Part shown: positions 7,551-52,486 of the stretch, one piece after another
Layout: the number at the start of each line of letters is the position of its first letter
Position numbering within the stretch: the first letter of the stretch is position 1
Assembly: GCA_964016885.1 (NCBI GenBank)
Contig: OZ024742.1
Location: forward strand, 232,624,001 to 232,688,000
Length of the DNA stretch: 64,000 nt
From: Eledone cirrhosa
Lineage: Eukaryota
Direction of reading: 5' to 3'
Position numbers and translations under genes: made by a program
The notes under the pieces: generated by a model
Told to the model about the DNA's origin: nothing
Database searches by the model: none
What the model saw: only the letters and a program-made list of their open reading frames with translations

Positions 7551-7961
7551 AGCAGGAGTCAGGGATAAATCTTATATATAAAAAAAAATATATATATATA
7601 TATATATTTGAAACATTTGTAAGCACTCTGAATAAATTACCTTTTTATGATGTCTACCTGTTATTATTCATTCTTTATATATATATATATATATATATAT
7701 ATATATATATATATATATATATATATATATATATATATATATATATATAGTAATAATAATAAAATTGAAGACTAAAATCCAGAGAGGGCTCGATATATAT
7801 ATATATATATATATATATTAAAGTGTTAAACAATATTCAATGATTATGTCAAAGAATGAGTTTTACAGTAGATTGGAAGCACTCTACGATAAAAATAATT
7901 TTCCGGAGTTATTAATATTAAAATATAAATATTAATAAAATAGATGTTCTTTTGATCAATT

Positions 7962-8018
7962 ACATTTTATTATACATATTTCGGATGTACAACAGTACGT
8001 CCTCATCAGATAAAATAT
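7962..8018 (-). ncRNA. Type I hammerhead ribozyme
   Basis: Minus strand: ATATTTTAT-CTGATGA-GGACGTAC tgtt GTACATCC-GAAA-T ATGT A-TA-ATAAAATGT; intact core, 9-bp stem I, AUA triplet. Confidence 0.85.
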
Positions 8019-8070
8019 AATGATATATGACATACCCTGAGATGTTAAATGGTTAAGATTTATTCAAGGT

Positions 8071-9477
8071 AGTGATTAACCCAAGAGAAAATTTTACATA
8101 TATAGCCTAATTATGAGAAAATGCGAAAACATAATAAATTCATTAGAGAATGTGCGAGTAAGAAAAACGTTGCTTACTGTAACTGTTCTAGAGATGTTAA
8201 AATGTATGATACTACGATATATCTAGGAAAACATCTCATGAATTATAACAGCCAGTGATAGCCACTGGAAAAGGATTTATAAAGAGGGAAAGATAAAGGG
8301 GAGGGGGGGGGGGGTGATATATGCAGAAAGAGATTTTTTCCGAAAGTTAAACGGTTAAATTTGAAAATATTTAATTTATACTTTATAATATTAGGGTGAA
8401 GACTCCAGATTTCAGGATTGTTTGCTGGTTATTTATATATTATTTGTATAAGTGTGTTATCATTTCTAAGCTTCTGAATTTTGTGAGGGTAACATTTAAA
8501 GGATTTAGCTGGCACATAAAGAATGAAATATTATACTGTTGATTATTTAGCCAAATTTAAACTTTAACAAAGATACCAACATATTAGGTATGTAAAGTTT
8601 TAGAATTACTTATTGTTATAAATATTTAAATAATGATTATGTATATAGGTATATATTAATGAGCCAGTATATTTTAGGTAAATAATAACGACGAAGATGA
8701 AAATAAAATAAGATAATAGATTGAGGCATGTTAAGGTTAAATATATTAATTATTCTTTAACCAAGATATCAACATATTAGGTATGTAAAGCTTCTGAAGT
8801 ATTTATTGTTAGAAATATTTAAATAACGATTATGTATATAGATACATATTATTGATCCAGTATATTTTAGGTAAATGATAACGAAAATATACTGGCTCAT
8901 TAATATATACCTATATACATAATCGTTATTTAAATATTTATAACAATAAGTAATTCAAAAACTTTACATACCTAATATGTTGGTATCTTTGTTAAAGTTT
9001 AAATTTGGCTAAATAATCAATAGTATAATATTTCATTCTTTATGTGCCAGCTAAATCCTTTAAATGTTACCCTCACAAAATTCAGAAGCCTAGAAATGAT
9101 AACACTTATACAAATAATATATAAATAACCAGCAAACAATCCTGAAATCTGGAGTCTTCACCCTAATATTGTAAATTATAAATTAAATATTTTCAAATTT
9201 AACCATTTAACTTTCGGAAAAAATCTCCTTCTGCATATATCACCCCCCCCCCCCCCTTTATCTTTCCCTCTTTATAAATCCTTTTCCAGTGGCTATCACT
9301 GGCTGTTATAATTCATGAGATGTTTTCCTAGATATATCGTAGTATCATACATTTTAAAATCTCTAGAACAGTAAGCAACGTTTTTCTTACTCGCACATTC
9401 TCTAATGAATTTATTATGTTTTCGCATTTTCTCATAATTAGGCTATATATGTAAAATTTTCTCTTGGGTTAATCACT
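8071..9477. repeat. Long inverted repeat (pseudo-LTR-like fold-back)
   Basis: Arms ~8071-8675 and ~8884-9477 are near-identical reverse complements; the spacer holds a direct duplicate of part of the left arm. Confidence 0.9.
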
Positions 9478-9893
9478 GCTCGTCACTTCGTCACGGTTTT
9501 TGTCCGTCTGGAGGTCCGCACCAAACCAGGTCCCTAGCAATTTAACCGGTCCGACGACGCTGTTGGACAGTATGGACCTACCTCTCCAGGTACTGAGCCG
9601 CAGACCTACCGACTTTTCCTGCTTAATAATTGCTCCTGTCACCGCCTCGTATTCTTTTAGAGTTGTGCCAATCGCATCGATGTTTGGCACTCGACACCAC
9701 TACGGTGGCGTCATCGGCATAAGCCACGGTTCTCCCGCATCCCAGTTCGCGCGGGATGCCCCTCAACGACTCCAGTTTGTGCAGTAATGGCTCGAGAGTC
9801 AATACGTACAACAGGGACGAGAGGAGACATCCTTGGCAGACCGAGTGCATGATGTTAAACGGGTCCGAAAGGTGACCGTTCACTCTAACCACA
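9478..9893 (-). mobile_element. Tx1/L1-like LINE RT fragment
   Basis: VRVNGHLSDPF..SVCQGCLLSSLLYVLTLEPL..AYADDATV. Confidence 0.8.
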
Positions 9894-9911
9894 GAAGAAA
9901 ACGTTATTTTT

Positions 9912-49164: not shown

Positions 49165-49470
49165 TATATATATATATATATGAATGATCCATTTGAAGTG
49201 AAGCAAATTGTTCTTGGAAATGATGTATCAACTGTTGTGGAACTACTTCTATATATATATATATATATATATATATATATAAAGTATTTCCCTGGAAAAG
49301 GTAAAGGAAAGAAGAGTGCTCTATGTAATAAACAACACAATATAATTATTCCATTTGTGAAACCTTGGGTAATGGAATAATGAACCTTGGGTAATTATAT
49401 TGTGTTGTTTATTATATATATATATATATATATATAGTTAAAAGAATAGAGGTGTAACACACAAGTTATT

Positions 49471-50773
49471 ATATATTGGTAAACGGAATAGAAAATGCTG
49501 ACAAATTGTTCACAGTTGAAAAATGGTTTAATTAGGAATAAAAGAGTATTAGTGATTGTATGGGTTAGTATTCAGTTGTGGTTTTAAGTTTTTAAGTTTT
49601 TACCGGTTGCGCATTTCTAAATGCTTTTCAAAAATAATTTTGAGATAGAGTGTCCGTGCTGTTTGCTCTGATCTGATTAGTTTTGGGAATTCTACCTGTT
49701 TTTATGTTAAAAAAGTGGCTCCAGCGTTATTTTTGTGTTGCAAAAATGCTTGTGGTCAAAACAATTTTGATTGGTCGGTAGAGGTCATGTGAATGTAAAA
49801 AGTTGATTTTGCGCCAAGACTGTTTTTATGTTAAAATGTTAAAAAAGTGGCTCCAGCAAAAATTATTGGTCAAAACAATTTTGATTGGTCGGTAGCGGTC
49901 ATGTGGATAAAAAATTGGTTTTGCGCCAAGATTGAGAAATGACTCTTTCACAACAAATATGTGTGTGTGTGTGTGTGTGTGTGTAGTAGTAGTAGTAGTA
50001 AGGTGTTCGATGCTGCGACAATGGCCAGCAGCGATGTGTGTCAAATGGCTATTAAGATAAGTGTGTGTGTGTGTGTGTGTGTGTGTATATAGCAGAGTCA
50101 TTCGAAGGTCAAAAGATATTTTTCAGCTTTTGTCTTATACGGAGAGGTGCGTGTGTGTGTGTGTGTGTGTATAAGTCTCTTTGTATGTTGATGTACGCGT
50201 GTGTATGTGTTTGTGTATATATATGTGTGTGTGTGTGGGTGGACCAGTATTTTTTTCCCCCTGGTAAAATGGTGTACATTATTCGAGTTTTTCAGTAAAA
50301 TCGGTTCTCTTAATAGAACATCAAAAATCTTAACAATAAAAGGTGTGAAATGATATTCACTATATATATACACACACATACATACATTCACTACATATAT
50401 ATATATATACATATATACATACAGTATTGGCGCAAAATCAACTTTTTACATTCACATGACCTCTACCGACCAATCAAAATTGTTTTGACCACAAGCATTT
50501 TTGCAACACAAAAATAACGCTGGAGCCACTTTTTTAACATAAAAACAGGTAGAATTCCCAAAACTAATCAGATCAGAGCAAACAGCACGGACACTCTATC
50601 TCAAAATTATTTTTGAAAAGCATTTAGAAATGCGCAACCGGTAAAAACTTAAAAACTTAAAACCACAACTGAATACTAACCCATACAATCACTAATACTC
50701 TTTTATTCCTAATTAAACCATTTTTCAACTGTGAACAATTTGTCAGCATTTTCTATTCCGTTTACCAATATAT
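49471..50773. repeat. 347-bp inverted repeat pair with a degenerate HHR
   Basis: 49471-49817 is the reverse complement of 50427-50773; TTT-TTGAAAA-GCATTTAGAAATGC-GCAA-CCGG-TA-AAA at 50610-50646. Confidence 0.85.
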
Positions 50774-50875
50774 ATATATATATATATATATATATATATA
50801 TATATATATATATATATATATATATATATGCAAAAGAAACTAAAGAATGCTTACATACTTAAACAGTCTTTATTT

Positions 50876-50921
50876 ACTTACAATGTTTCATCCTCACCTT
50901 TTGGCAGGAATCCTCAGAGCC
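50876..50921 (-). ncRNA. Hammerhead ribozyme (weak stem I)
   Basis: GCT-CTGAGGA-TTCCTGCC aaaa GGTGAGGAT-GAAA-CATTG-TA-AGT. Confidence 0.6.
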
Positions 50922-52486
50922 TAATAAATACAGTGTTGAGTATAAGCTCCACAAAACCTAGTCACACGAACAATCAGAATAAAGATAGGGAGATTGGAGA
51001 TGGCGAACAAAGAGGTGCATGCTGGGGTTGTTAAGCATCGCTGTTAAATGCCAAGACATCAGCGGATTCAATATATATGTGTGTATGTGTGTGTGTATGT
51101 ATATGTGTGTGTATGTATGTATATGTGTGTGTATGTATGTATGTATATATGTATGATTTAGGGCAGCAAATTATGGTATTAGTTCTGGCTCTCTGCTCTC
51201 TGATTTCGAATCCTGCCAAGATCAACTTTGCCTTTCATCCTTTCAAGGTCGATAAAAAAAGTACCAGTCTAATACTGGGGTCGATTCTTCCTCTATTTCT
51301 CTTTCTCATTTCCTCTCTCTCACATTCTATCTTTAGCCAAACACTTTTTTTCTTAATACCATGCATCACCTACCCTTCAATTATATAGACACAAAATAAG
51401 CACATCTTTCTGTTTTGCTGGCATCATCATCATCATCATCATTTTACGTCCACTTTTCCCTGCTTGCAAGGGTGGGACGGGAAATGGTTCTGGCTTGATT
51501 TCTACAGCTGGATGCCCTTCCTAACACCAACCTCATTTACAGTAAGTGATGGGTGCTTTTTTTCCGTGGCGCCTACACGACCACTTTATAGTGTGGTCTG
51601 GGTGCTTTTTTGCCGTGGCACCTCCACGACCACTTTACAGTGGAATGATATGGACCCCAGTCCCTATCATCTCATTTCTACAGCTGAGTAAACTGGAGCA
51701 ATGTGAAATAAAGTGTCTTGCTCAAGGAAACAACACATCACCCAATCCAAGAATTGAACTCCCAACCTTTCGATTGCAAGGCCAATGCTCTAACTACTAA
51801 GCCATGTGCCTCCATGTATACAGCATATATACAGAAAAAGATACTATATGCATTTTGTTGATTACATATTGATTTTTAATTTTGTCTTGAAAGTTTACTT
51901 AACACTTTAATAGTACACACAAAAAAAAACAATGCCTTTCTATAGGTTTGATGAGTTGCACACTCTCTCTATTTCTGTCACAGTCCTTTAAAATGGGTGG
52001 TTTTGTTTCAGAGACGGTTTTGGGAAGGTTGGTATCAGAAGGGTTAAGCATATTCACTTGCAGAGAGATATTGTGACATAGAGATATTTGGATTCTGTTC
52101 AAAATAAGAAAGAATCATATCCATGCATATTGAGCTTTAAACAAACACGCCTTTTCTATTGTTTTGTTTCTATCATCATCATCGTCAGAAGAAGAAGAAC
52201 TTGTTGCATCTTGATTTTCAGGAGTAATAATATTGTCAATAATTTATTGATCTAAAAAATATTTAGAGTAATTCAATACTGTCAGCTTCAGTTTATCATC
52301 TATATCCTGGACATTATATAATGGATTTTCTACGGATATTGTTTGTAATGTTTGCATTATTTCTTTGTACTGCGCTTAACACTAAAACCATAAAAATCCT
52401 TTTCATTTCATTATCAGAAATGTACTCGTTAAATGTGAAGATAGTTTAAAATTTGAATCATATTCTCAAAAACATGACAGGTTTAA

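What the first reader, a model, noticed from the sequence alone, without database searches (positions are those of the whole stretch)
7960..50925. Diverse hammerhead-ribozyme retroelements nested in (TA)n microsatellites, next to a Penelope RT/GIY-YIG element
Seen: HHR folds of unrelated primary sequence at 7962, 36893, 37204, 37978/38569, 39301/43940, 47106, 47930, 50610 and 50876, plus isolated halves at 35745/36090, 39048-39212 and 49359. Almost all lie in short non-coding islands bounded by (TA)n or similar tracts. Established: Penelope-like elements carry type I HHRs in their pseudo-LTRs, and retrozymes are non-autonomous HHR elements that make circular RNAs. Inference: many distinct non-autonomous or truncated families use PLE enzymes and share a (TA)n target, so the microsatellites act as landing sites for ribozyme elements.
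Basis: partly seen in the sequence, partly recalled or inferred. Interest (0 to 1): 0.9.

Follow-up and report, generated by a model that had tools for sequence, protein, structure and literature searches.

The report
Penelope hammerhead elements in TA microsatellites
This stretch is littered with small RNA folds of the self-cutting 'hammerhead' type that mark the ends of a dozen different Penelope-like jumping genes and their non-coding passengers, which end directly at TA repeats; this is a known kind of element, here unusually abundant, and its mirror-image insertions follow a nearly strict pairing rule that likely reflects how the element copies itself.

Summary
Observation confirmed. Six perfect type I hammerheads pass a strict descriptor (shuffles 0.005-0.01). 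The other listed sites are partial or variant folds of real repeat families. It is genome-wide: 25 hits in 590 kb of sampled genome, 25 of 25 within 300 bp of (TA)n (background 28%); 321 of 349 element ends abut (TA)n. Of 13 families, 6 are 3' ends of protein-coding Penelope-like elements (5 Hydra-type, including the window's ORF; 1 Neptune-type). Four are self-closing non-coding units of 427-657 bp (retrozyme-like); 3 are unresolved. Hydra (TA)n targeting, PLE hammerheads, the U3-A8 core and PLE-derived retrozymes are all published; this scan noted similar PLE hammerhead end-pieces in other genomes. What is added: head-to-head insertions pair one short and one long 3' end in 100 of 102 cases across nine families, non-coding ones included; U3-A8 cores are very abundant; a mobile Neptune family has GCAA instead of GAAA in 29 of 29 copies. 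Cleavage, circles and expression are untested. New members of a known kind.

The parts
7819..8075 (-). Family A: 3' end of a Hydra-type PLE; canonical hammerhead 7964-8016; long end at 7819 abuts (TA)n (short end 7915). The copy continues further upstream.
   Evidence: hammerhead-ORF-hammerhead copy in L362
35655..35776 (-). Family J: 5'-truncated piece of a 485-bp non-coding tandem unit; 3' half of hammerhead at 35741-35758
35775..36152 (-). Family J2: sister of J (81% over 208 bp); 3' half of hammerhead at 36086-36103; parent unresolved
36845..37060 (-). Family B: 3' end of a very young Hydra-type PLE; canonical hammerhead 36893-36947
   Evidence: 40 best copies 100% identical; endonuclease-coding frame upstream in 4 of 25 loci,
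37189..37328 (-). Family C: hammerhead 37204-37250, family core mostly CCGAUGA; cut site mutated in this copy; over 1 kb of upstream sequence but no ORF found
37733..38680 (-). Family D: 1.6 units of a 591-bp non-coding tandem unit; U3-A8 hammerheads 37979-38064 and 38570-38655
   Evidence: one insertion of 13 whole or partial units (L212)
38967..39212 (.). Family K: head-to-head stump of a Hydra-type PLE 3' end; 3' halves of hammerhead at 39060-39086 (-) and 39174-39200 (+); long end left, short end right
   Evidence: ORF on the same arm in L207
39261..40881 (-). Family E inverted arm (short end at 39261); hammerhead 39301-39420 with a 91-nt stem II
40884..42971 (+). Hydra-clade PLE ORF, 5'-truncated (residues 78-773 of the full protein): telomerase-like RT, CxCX5C linker, C-terminal GIY-YIG
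42972..44209 (+). Family E 3' UTR with an internal (TA)n tract, hammerhead 43940-44059 (predicted cut after 44054), short end 44099, long end 44209
46902..47414 (+). Family F: 427-bp non-coding unit plus 86-bp redundancy; minimal hammerhead 47106-47148
47434..48395 (+). Family G: 657-bp non-coding unit (47597-48253) plus redundancy and a short inverted arm; hammerhead 47930-48009
49282..49412 (.). Family L: small inverted stump with 3' half of a hammerhead at 49359-49377; 80-91% like a sampled hammerhead family over 35-53 nt; parent unresolved
49437..50774 (.). Family H: head-to-head 3' UTR arms of a Neptune-type PLE; U3-A8 fold with GCAA at 49597-49634 (-) and 50610-50647 (+); long end 49437, short end 50774
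50830..51070 (-). Family I: 3' end of an older Hydra-type PLE; hammerhead 50869-50928
   Evidence: ORF in L206 and L208+L209

Best explanation
The hammerhead folds are real and sit near the 3' ends of at least six protein-coding Penelope-like elements (five Hydra-type, one Neptune-type) and in four non-coding 427-657 bp units, all ending at (TA)n, where they were likely inserted by PLE endonuclease/reverse-transcriptase proteins. Shown: the folds, the families, the attachment or self-closure of each, two fixed 3' ends per family 33-165 bp apart and downstream of the predicted cut site, abutment on (TA)n, and one short plus one long end in head-to-head insertions. Inferred: the GIY-YIG domain nicks (TA)n; reverse transcription starts inside the RNA at one of two fixed sites; it runs back through the hammerhead site, so the template is an uncut multimer or a circle; early stops leave the short islands. 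Inferred: in two-armed insertions both target strands are primed, one from each start site, and the two cDNAs are joined at their 5' ends. Inferred: each insertion splits a TA tract and some elements carry their own, so elements pile up. The palindromic stems III predict cleavage as dimers in tandem transcripts, probably weak or protein-assisted and probably not needed for insertion.
For: Descriptor 6 versus 0.005-0.01; 25 versus 0.13 in 590 kb, 25 of 25 within 300 bp of (TA)n against 27.7% background, 0 of 5000 within-locus permutations. 321 of 349 ends followed by (TA)n. ORF carries RWK, DKT, CxCX5C, CxxC and CxH as defined for Hydra; model pLDDT 86.7, best PDB matches telomerase RTs; at least 150 copies about 99% identical over the 200-residue query, many in 785-codon frames. 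Attachment to ORFs. Self-closing units without Hydra ORF in the insertion: G 30 loci, D 25, F 25, J 25. Short/long pairing 100 of 102; the short-ended arm reaches further upstream in 48 cases and the long-ended arm in 27, so neither arm is regularly a copy of the other. Core covariation: U3-A8 8 hits, mismatched C3-A8 and U3-G8 0 each. In vitro precedent for two internal start sites, extension on both strands and a dispensable hammerhead (PMC11167929).
Against: No RNA data: expression, cleavage and circles are untested. No helper was matched to D, F, G or J: no similarity to any ORF-bearing family among held loci. 'No ORF' rests on the best-scoring 25-30 loci of families with 672-5013 candidates. 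Clade placement rests on motifs, not a tree. Pfam finds nothing in the window's protein itself; GIY-YIG is seen in only 6 of 49 homologues. Family K has a C3-A8 mismatch in 6 of 15 cores and H lacks GAAA, so not all folds are likely active. MFE folding recovers the hammerhead form only partly. 28 of 349 ends do not abut (TA)n. PMC11167929 saw no difference in start site between the two strands in vitro.
Confidence: 0.85

Rival explanations
1. All islands are only solo or truncated pLTRs of autonomous PLEs; none is a self-standing non-autonomous element.
For: True for 6 of 13 families; PMC4209133 describes most motifs as single elements from truncated PLEs.
Against: D, F, G and J close on themselves: upstream of the unit start lies the unit end. 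D and J form arrays (up to 13 units for D), D, J and G tandems are bounded by (TA)n, and no Hydra ORF lies inside the insertions.
Confidence: 0.07
2. Monomeric circular RNAs made by hammerhead cleavage are the templates, and rolling-circle reverse transcription makes the tandem copies (classic retrozyme model).
For: Copies run through the cut site several times; units within one insertion differ less than between insertions (E 1.3 vs 7.3, J 5.7 vs 13.2, D 1.6 vs 3.2 per kb); one variant is in 13 of 13 units of L212; cores covary. Model proposed in PMC4209133; circles shown for other animals in PMC7229834.
Against: Variants recur in only some units of an array (3 of 11 in L212), and in two insertions the terminal units of both arms share a variant that inner units lack (L217; L062+L063). 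This fits heterogeneous multimer templates or later conversion. Family H spreads with a broken GAAA. Uncut RNA was the main substrate in vitro. This rival concerns the template only and can coexist with the best explanation.
Confidence: 0.35
3. The inverted arm arises by fold-back copying of the first cDNA, and the short end is made by endonuclease cleavage of the intermediate rather than by a second priming.
For: Craig 2021 ascribes the tail to EN-mediated resolution; Arkhipova 2013 favours self-priming; 19 of 100 pairs have arms of about equal reach; most short ends finish in a TA-like word.
Against: In 48 of 100 pairs the short-ended arm holds sequence absent from the long-ended arm, while the long arm holds the tail absent from the short arm, so neither can be copied from the other.
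Confidence: 0.2
4. Chance folds in AT-rich sequence, with TA proximity due only to local microsatellite density.
For: 79% of 34-51 kb lies within 500 bp of (TA)n; relaxed descriptors give chance hits.
Against: Shuffle controls, family conservation, core covariation, ends abutting (TA)n.
Confidence: 0.01

Closest known systems
Hydra clade of C-terminal EN+ Penelope-like elements (Craig et al. 2021, PMC8557442; includes Hydra-1_Obim from Octopus bimaculoides)
   Same: Single RT plus C-terminal GIY-YIG ORF, RWK, DKT, CxCX5C, CxxC/CxH, no CCHH; type I hammerhead near 3' end; (TA)n insertion; tandem and inverted structures; tail at one end.
   Different: Unit is 3.6 kb with a long microsatellite-bearing 3' UTR (published ones are generally under 3 kb); stem II of 91 nt against short stems in their File S2; tails of 77-110 bp against 30-40 bp; several co-active families. 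All Hydra cores listed in File S2 are C3-G8.
Neptune clade PLEs (as defined in PMC8557442)
   Same: [quoted passage not shown]
   Different: Hammerhead is U3-A8 with GCAA in 29 of 29 copies; a sister family with 57-58% protein identity keeps GAAA.
Minimal hammerheads of metazoan PLEs (Cervera and de la Pena 2014, PMC4209133)
   Same: Many variable families per genome, mostly single motifs, inverted pairs on opposite strands, palindromic stem III, U3-A8 covariant (about 1,300 in Schistosoma mansoni).
   Different: Scale: a U3-A8 pattern gives 53,644 matches against 16,671 for its control; roughly 10^5 canonical motifs by extrapolation.
Animal non-LTR retrozymes (Cervera and de la Pena 2020, PMC7229834; Li et al. 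2026, 10.64898/2026.07.22.740005); non-autonomous Chlamys elements such as MRC1
   Same: Non-coding tandem units with one type I hammerhead each, dispersed, no LTR; proposed PLE derivatives.
   Different: Units of 427-657 bp with PLE-type minimal hammerheads, mostly 1-3 copies, fixed double 3' ends, inverted arms and (TA)n targeting, which show dispersed PLE-type insertion. Circles and cleavage not shown here.
PAc Poseidon element in vitro (Frangieh et al. 2024, PMC11167929)
   Same: Two internal RT start sites that define the tail, AT-rich nicking, both strands extended, hammerhead not required.
   Different: No strand difference in start site was seen in vitro; here inverted insertions almost always use one of each site.

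Membership tests
Hydra-clade PLE (family E) | Single ORF, telomerase-like RT, C-terminal GIY-YIG | tested here: met
   773-aa ORF; best fold matches are telomerase RTs; conserved Y652, Y665, G667, E735, N748; GIY-YIG in 6 of 49 homologues; Pfam blank for the protein itself
Hydra-clade PLE (family E) | RWK present, DKG changed to DKT, no GxKF/Y | tested here: met
   against definition
Hydra-clade PLE (family E) | CxCX5C linker; CxxC and CxH around the conserved E and N; no CCHH between GIY and YIG | tested here: met
   motifs at 631, 729, 757; no CxxC between 650 and 667
Hydra-clade PLE (family E) | Hammerhead near 3' end and insertion into (TA)n | tested here: met
   31 of 31 E ends abut (TA)n
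Hydra-clade PLE (family E) | Groups with Hydra reference proteins in an RT tree | not tested
   reference sequences were read in the supplement and compared by eye only; no tree was built
Neptune-clade PLE (family H) | CX2-5CxxC linker and CCHH-type GIY-YIG | tested here: met
   translation; Pfam GIY-YIG 27.8 bits over cut-off 22.6; no tree
Type I hammerhead ribozyme | Core CUGANGA/GAAA/UH or covariant U3-A8, three stems | tested here: met
   A, B, E, F, G strict; I with interrupted stem I; D U3-A8; C with U4C; J whole elsewhere
Type I hammerhead ribozyme | Invariant G12-A13-A14 in family H (50610) | tested here: not met
   GCAA in 29 of 29 copies; sister family GAAA in 11 of 11
Type I hammerhead ribozyme | Self-cleavage | not testable with these tools
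   needs in vitro transcription
Non-LTR retrozyme (D, F, G, J) | Non-coding unit in tandem, one type I hammerhead per unit | tested here: met
   D and J arrays, G 2-3 units, F mostly 1-1.9 units
Non-LTR retrozyme (D, F, G, J) | Abundant linear and circular monomer RNA | not testable with these tools
   no RNA run was listed for D; other units not queried
Non-LTR retrozyme (D, F, G, J) | Sequence kinship to a PLE pLTR | tested here: inconclusive
   no match to ORF-bearing families among held loci; PLE-type ends and inversions are shared

The most novel reading that the evidence does not exclude
PLE insertion follows a fixed two-primer rule: one complex primes both strands of a (TA)n target, always once from the near and once from the far internal start site, and non-coding retrozymes have each kept both sites to use it. 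The hammerhead is then a passenger for insertion, as a spreading Neptune family with a broken GAAA suggests. This would explain the long-noted tail at one end and the inverted arms of PLEs, and gives a direct in vitro test with a young, intact Hydra protein.
Probability: 0.5. Interest if true: 0.65.

Novelty: new member of a known kind. Interest (0 to 1): 0.42.

Why it matters
The kinds of element are known, so the value is in mechanism and scale. Craig et al. name the origin of tandem/inverted structures and of microsatellite bias as open questions. This genome offers hundreds of near-identical intact Hydra copies, a simple target, and non-coding passengers of 0.4-0.7 kb that are ready-made minimal substrates. 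The 100 of 102 pairing count turns 'tail often at one end' into a rule to test. Sister Neptune families with intact and broken cores are a natural test of whether the ribozyme matters. Rfam misses all these motifs, so roughly 10^5 of them go unannotated in this genome.

Tried and rejected
Rfam scan: only microsatellite-driven miRNA matches, no hammerhead. Pfam on the PLE protein: blank. Repeat finder was swamped by microsatellites. Descriptors allowing 1-3 core mismatches gave mostly chance hits and missed the variant folds. First genome search for family H returned no candidates; another part worked. Sequencing runs: no RNA holder listed; laying contigs of four runs of unknown kind on D showed the unit is present, one contig closing on itself, which tandem DNA explains as well; no inference drawn. 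Single-sequence fold of the endonuclease part failed (pLDDT 37.5) and was not searched. No ORF found for family C in 25 loci plus two 9-kb extensions. No helper found for D, F, G, J. MFE folds gave mixed z-scores (-4.2 to +0.2) and are not used as proof. U3-A8 as a novelty was rejected after reading PMC4209133 and PMC3088659. PMC1986816 is not held. Searches for prior reports: octopus+Penelope+hammerhead, cephalopod+retrozyme, hammerhead+A13C (none), Penelope/inverted/tail/pLTR/twin priming; they cover open-access papers only. Supplements of the Li preprint were not seen and may bear on (TA)n targeting of retrozymes. Families J2, K and L had no genome search of their own.
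Full report
1. Observation. The window lies in a 3.0-Gb animal genome. I did not identify the host; its repeat landscape recalled octopus genomes (recall, untested), which guided two paper searches. A strict type I hammerhead descriptor finds 6 motifs in the window against 0.005-0.01 in 600 shuffles. Rfam finds no hammerhead. All 25 lie within 300 bp of (TA) of six or more units, against 27.7% of background positions; 0 of 5000 within-locus permutations reach this. Extrapolated, that is roughly 10^5 motifs. 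The window is about twice the sample density, so it shows a genome-wide feature.

2. The protein-coding element. The ORF at 40884-42971 is residues 78-773 of a full protein. At least 150 genomic matches are about 99% identical over the 200-residue query, many in 785-codon frames. It has RWK, DKT, CxCX5C, CxxC and CxH and lacks CCHH, the features that define the Hydra clade (PMC8557442 section 11), whose families carry hammerheads and insert into (TA)n (supplement sheets). The model (pLDDT 86.7) matches telomerase RTs best. Pfam is blank for the protein; 6 of 49 homologues match GIY-YIG. In 16 fetched stretches the whole 3,599-bp unit occurs head to tail and head to head, and ends at window-equivalent 44099 or 44209 followed by (TA)n, 45 and 155 nt past the predicted cut.

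3. The families. Attached to an ORF elsewhere: E; A (hammerhead-ORF-hammerhead in L362); B (4 of 25 loci); I (L206 and L208+L209); K (L207, L304); H (Neptune-type ORF in at least 6 of 25 loci). Self-closing and non-coding: D 591 bp, about 99% identical, one insertion of 13 whole or partial units; G 657 bp; F 427 bp; J 485 bp arrays. These loci are the best-scoring 25-30 of 672-5013 candidates, some overlapping, so rare ORF-linked copies are not excluded. Unresolved: C, J2 and L. No helper was matched to the non-coding units.

4. Cores. D has U3-A8 in 78 of 78 aligned copies. In the sample U3-A8 gives 8 hits (shuffles 0.47; about two look like chance) and the mismatched C3-A8 and U3-G8 give none; against this, K has C3-A8 in 6 of 15 cores. 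A genome-wide U3-A8 pattern gives 53,644 matches against 16,671 for the reversed control. The variant is known: in PLEs of Schistosoma (PMC4209133) and as an active covariant (PMC3088659 passage). C mostly has U4C (18 of 23). H has GCAA in 29 of 29 copies, while a sister Neptune family, 75% alike in this region, has GAAA in 11 of 11. That A13 is essential is recalled, not tested; one search found no paper on A13C. Stems III are short palindromes in most families, which predicts dimeric cleavage (PMC4209133); K has a full hairpin.

5. Ends. Each of nine families has two fixed 3' ends 33-165 bp apart, about equally used except in G and J. In seven families 321 of 349 terminal ends are followed by (TA)n (90 long ends that run on into the next unit were set aside). 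Of 104 distinct head-to-head insertions held within single loci, 102 could be classed: 100 pair a short with a long end, 2 are short-short, none long-long (binomial P 2e-27 against one half). End classes were defined on the same data and long insertions are under-sampled. Of the 100, the short-ended arm reaches further upstream in 48, the long-ended in 27, 19 are about equal and 6 unresolved. So both arms mostly need their own template. That the tail is often on one end only is published (PMC8557442 Fig. 2 legend; PMC3846280); I found no count of it, nor a report for non-coding units, in four searches.

6. Mechanism. Inferred: PLE protein nicks (TA)n and starts reverse transcription inside the RNA at two sites, as shown in vitro for an anole PLE (PMC11167929). 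Copies run through the cut site, so the template is an uncut multimer or a circle. Units within an insertion are more alike than between insertions, which fits either. Variants confined to some units, or to the terminal units of both arms in two insertions, lean towards multimers or later conversion; one G array shows a chimeric unit typical of unequal crossover. Early stops give the islands; split tracts and internal (TA)n in E and H offer new targets. No RNA run was listed, so expression, cleavage and circles are open.

7. Papers seen. PMC8557442: abstract, sections 3 and 11, passages, supplement parts 1, 2 and 52 of 59. PMC4209133: parts 1-2 of 4. PMC11167929: parts 1-2 of 4. Li et al. preprint: parts 1-3 of 5, supplements not seen; only 1 of 9 tested dimers cleaved. 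PMC7229834: part 2 of 6 and passages. PMC3088659 and PMC3846280: passages.

8. Verdict. Real, abundant and mostly explained: new members of Hydra- and Neptune-type PLEs and of PLE-dependent retrozyme-like units. Interest 0.42, carried by the pairing rule, the broken-core family and the experimental convenience of young intact copies.

Noticed in passing
window 48458-49164: Head-to-head insertion between (TA)n tracts with ends about 37 bp apart; carries CTGATGAG but no recognisable stem II/GAAA; distant relatives in L254 and L042. Possibly a PLE end with a decayed hammerhead.
   Followed up: partly
L305+L306 and L307 (sample loci L149, L178): A further Hydra-type PLE with a U3-A8 hammerhead on both sides of the ORF.
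   Followed up: partly
L367:1477-3057: Six-copy array, 316-bp period, of another U3-A8 hammerhead unit bounded by (TA)n.
   Followed up: partly
L363, L364 (family c11): The commonest U3-A8 motif among the listed genome matches belongs to a Neptune-type PLE, sister of family H.
   Followed up: yes
L299:3170-9998: Another young PLE with a 1,279-codon open frame, Asn/Thr-rich N-terminal part, in tandem; not Hydra-type.
   Followed up: no
window 11269-14989, 17995-21126, 24836-28506: Broken LTR-retrotransposon pol genes (RT, RNase H, integrase; DUF7041, DUF7047).
   Followed up: no
window 32052-34578, 7107-7571, 9623-9949: LINE-type RT fragments; the 32-34.5 kb copy is interrupted by TA-rich tracts.
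   Followed up: no
window 38715-38796, 44771-44870, 54529-54628, 58547-58646: Four copies of a short dispersed repeat, SINE-like.
   Followed up: no
window 5924-6058: Weak match to the Hydra protein (E 1.5e-4), perhaps an old PLE remnant.
   Followed up: no
L168:3516, L158:2928, L172:4462: Hammerhead families with stem II inserts over 100 nt; long stems II recur in this genome.
   Followed up: no
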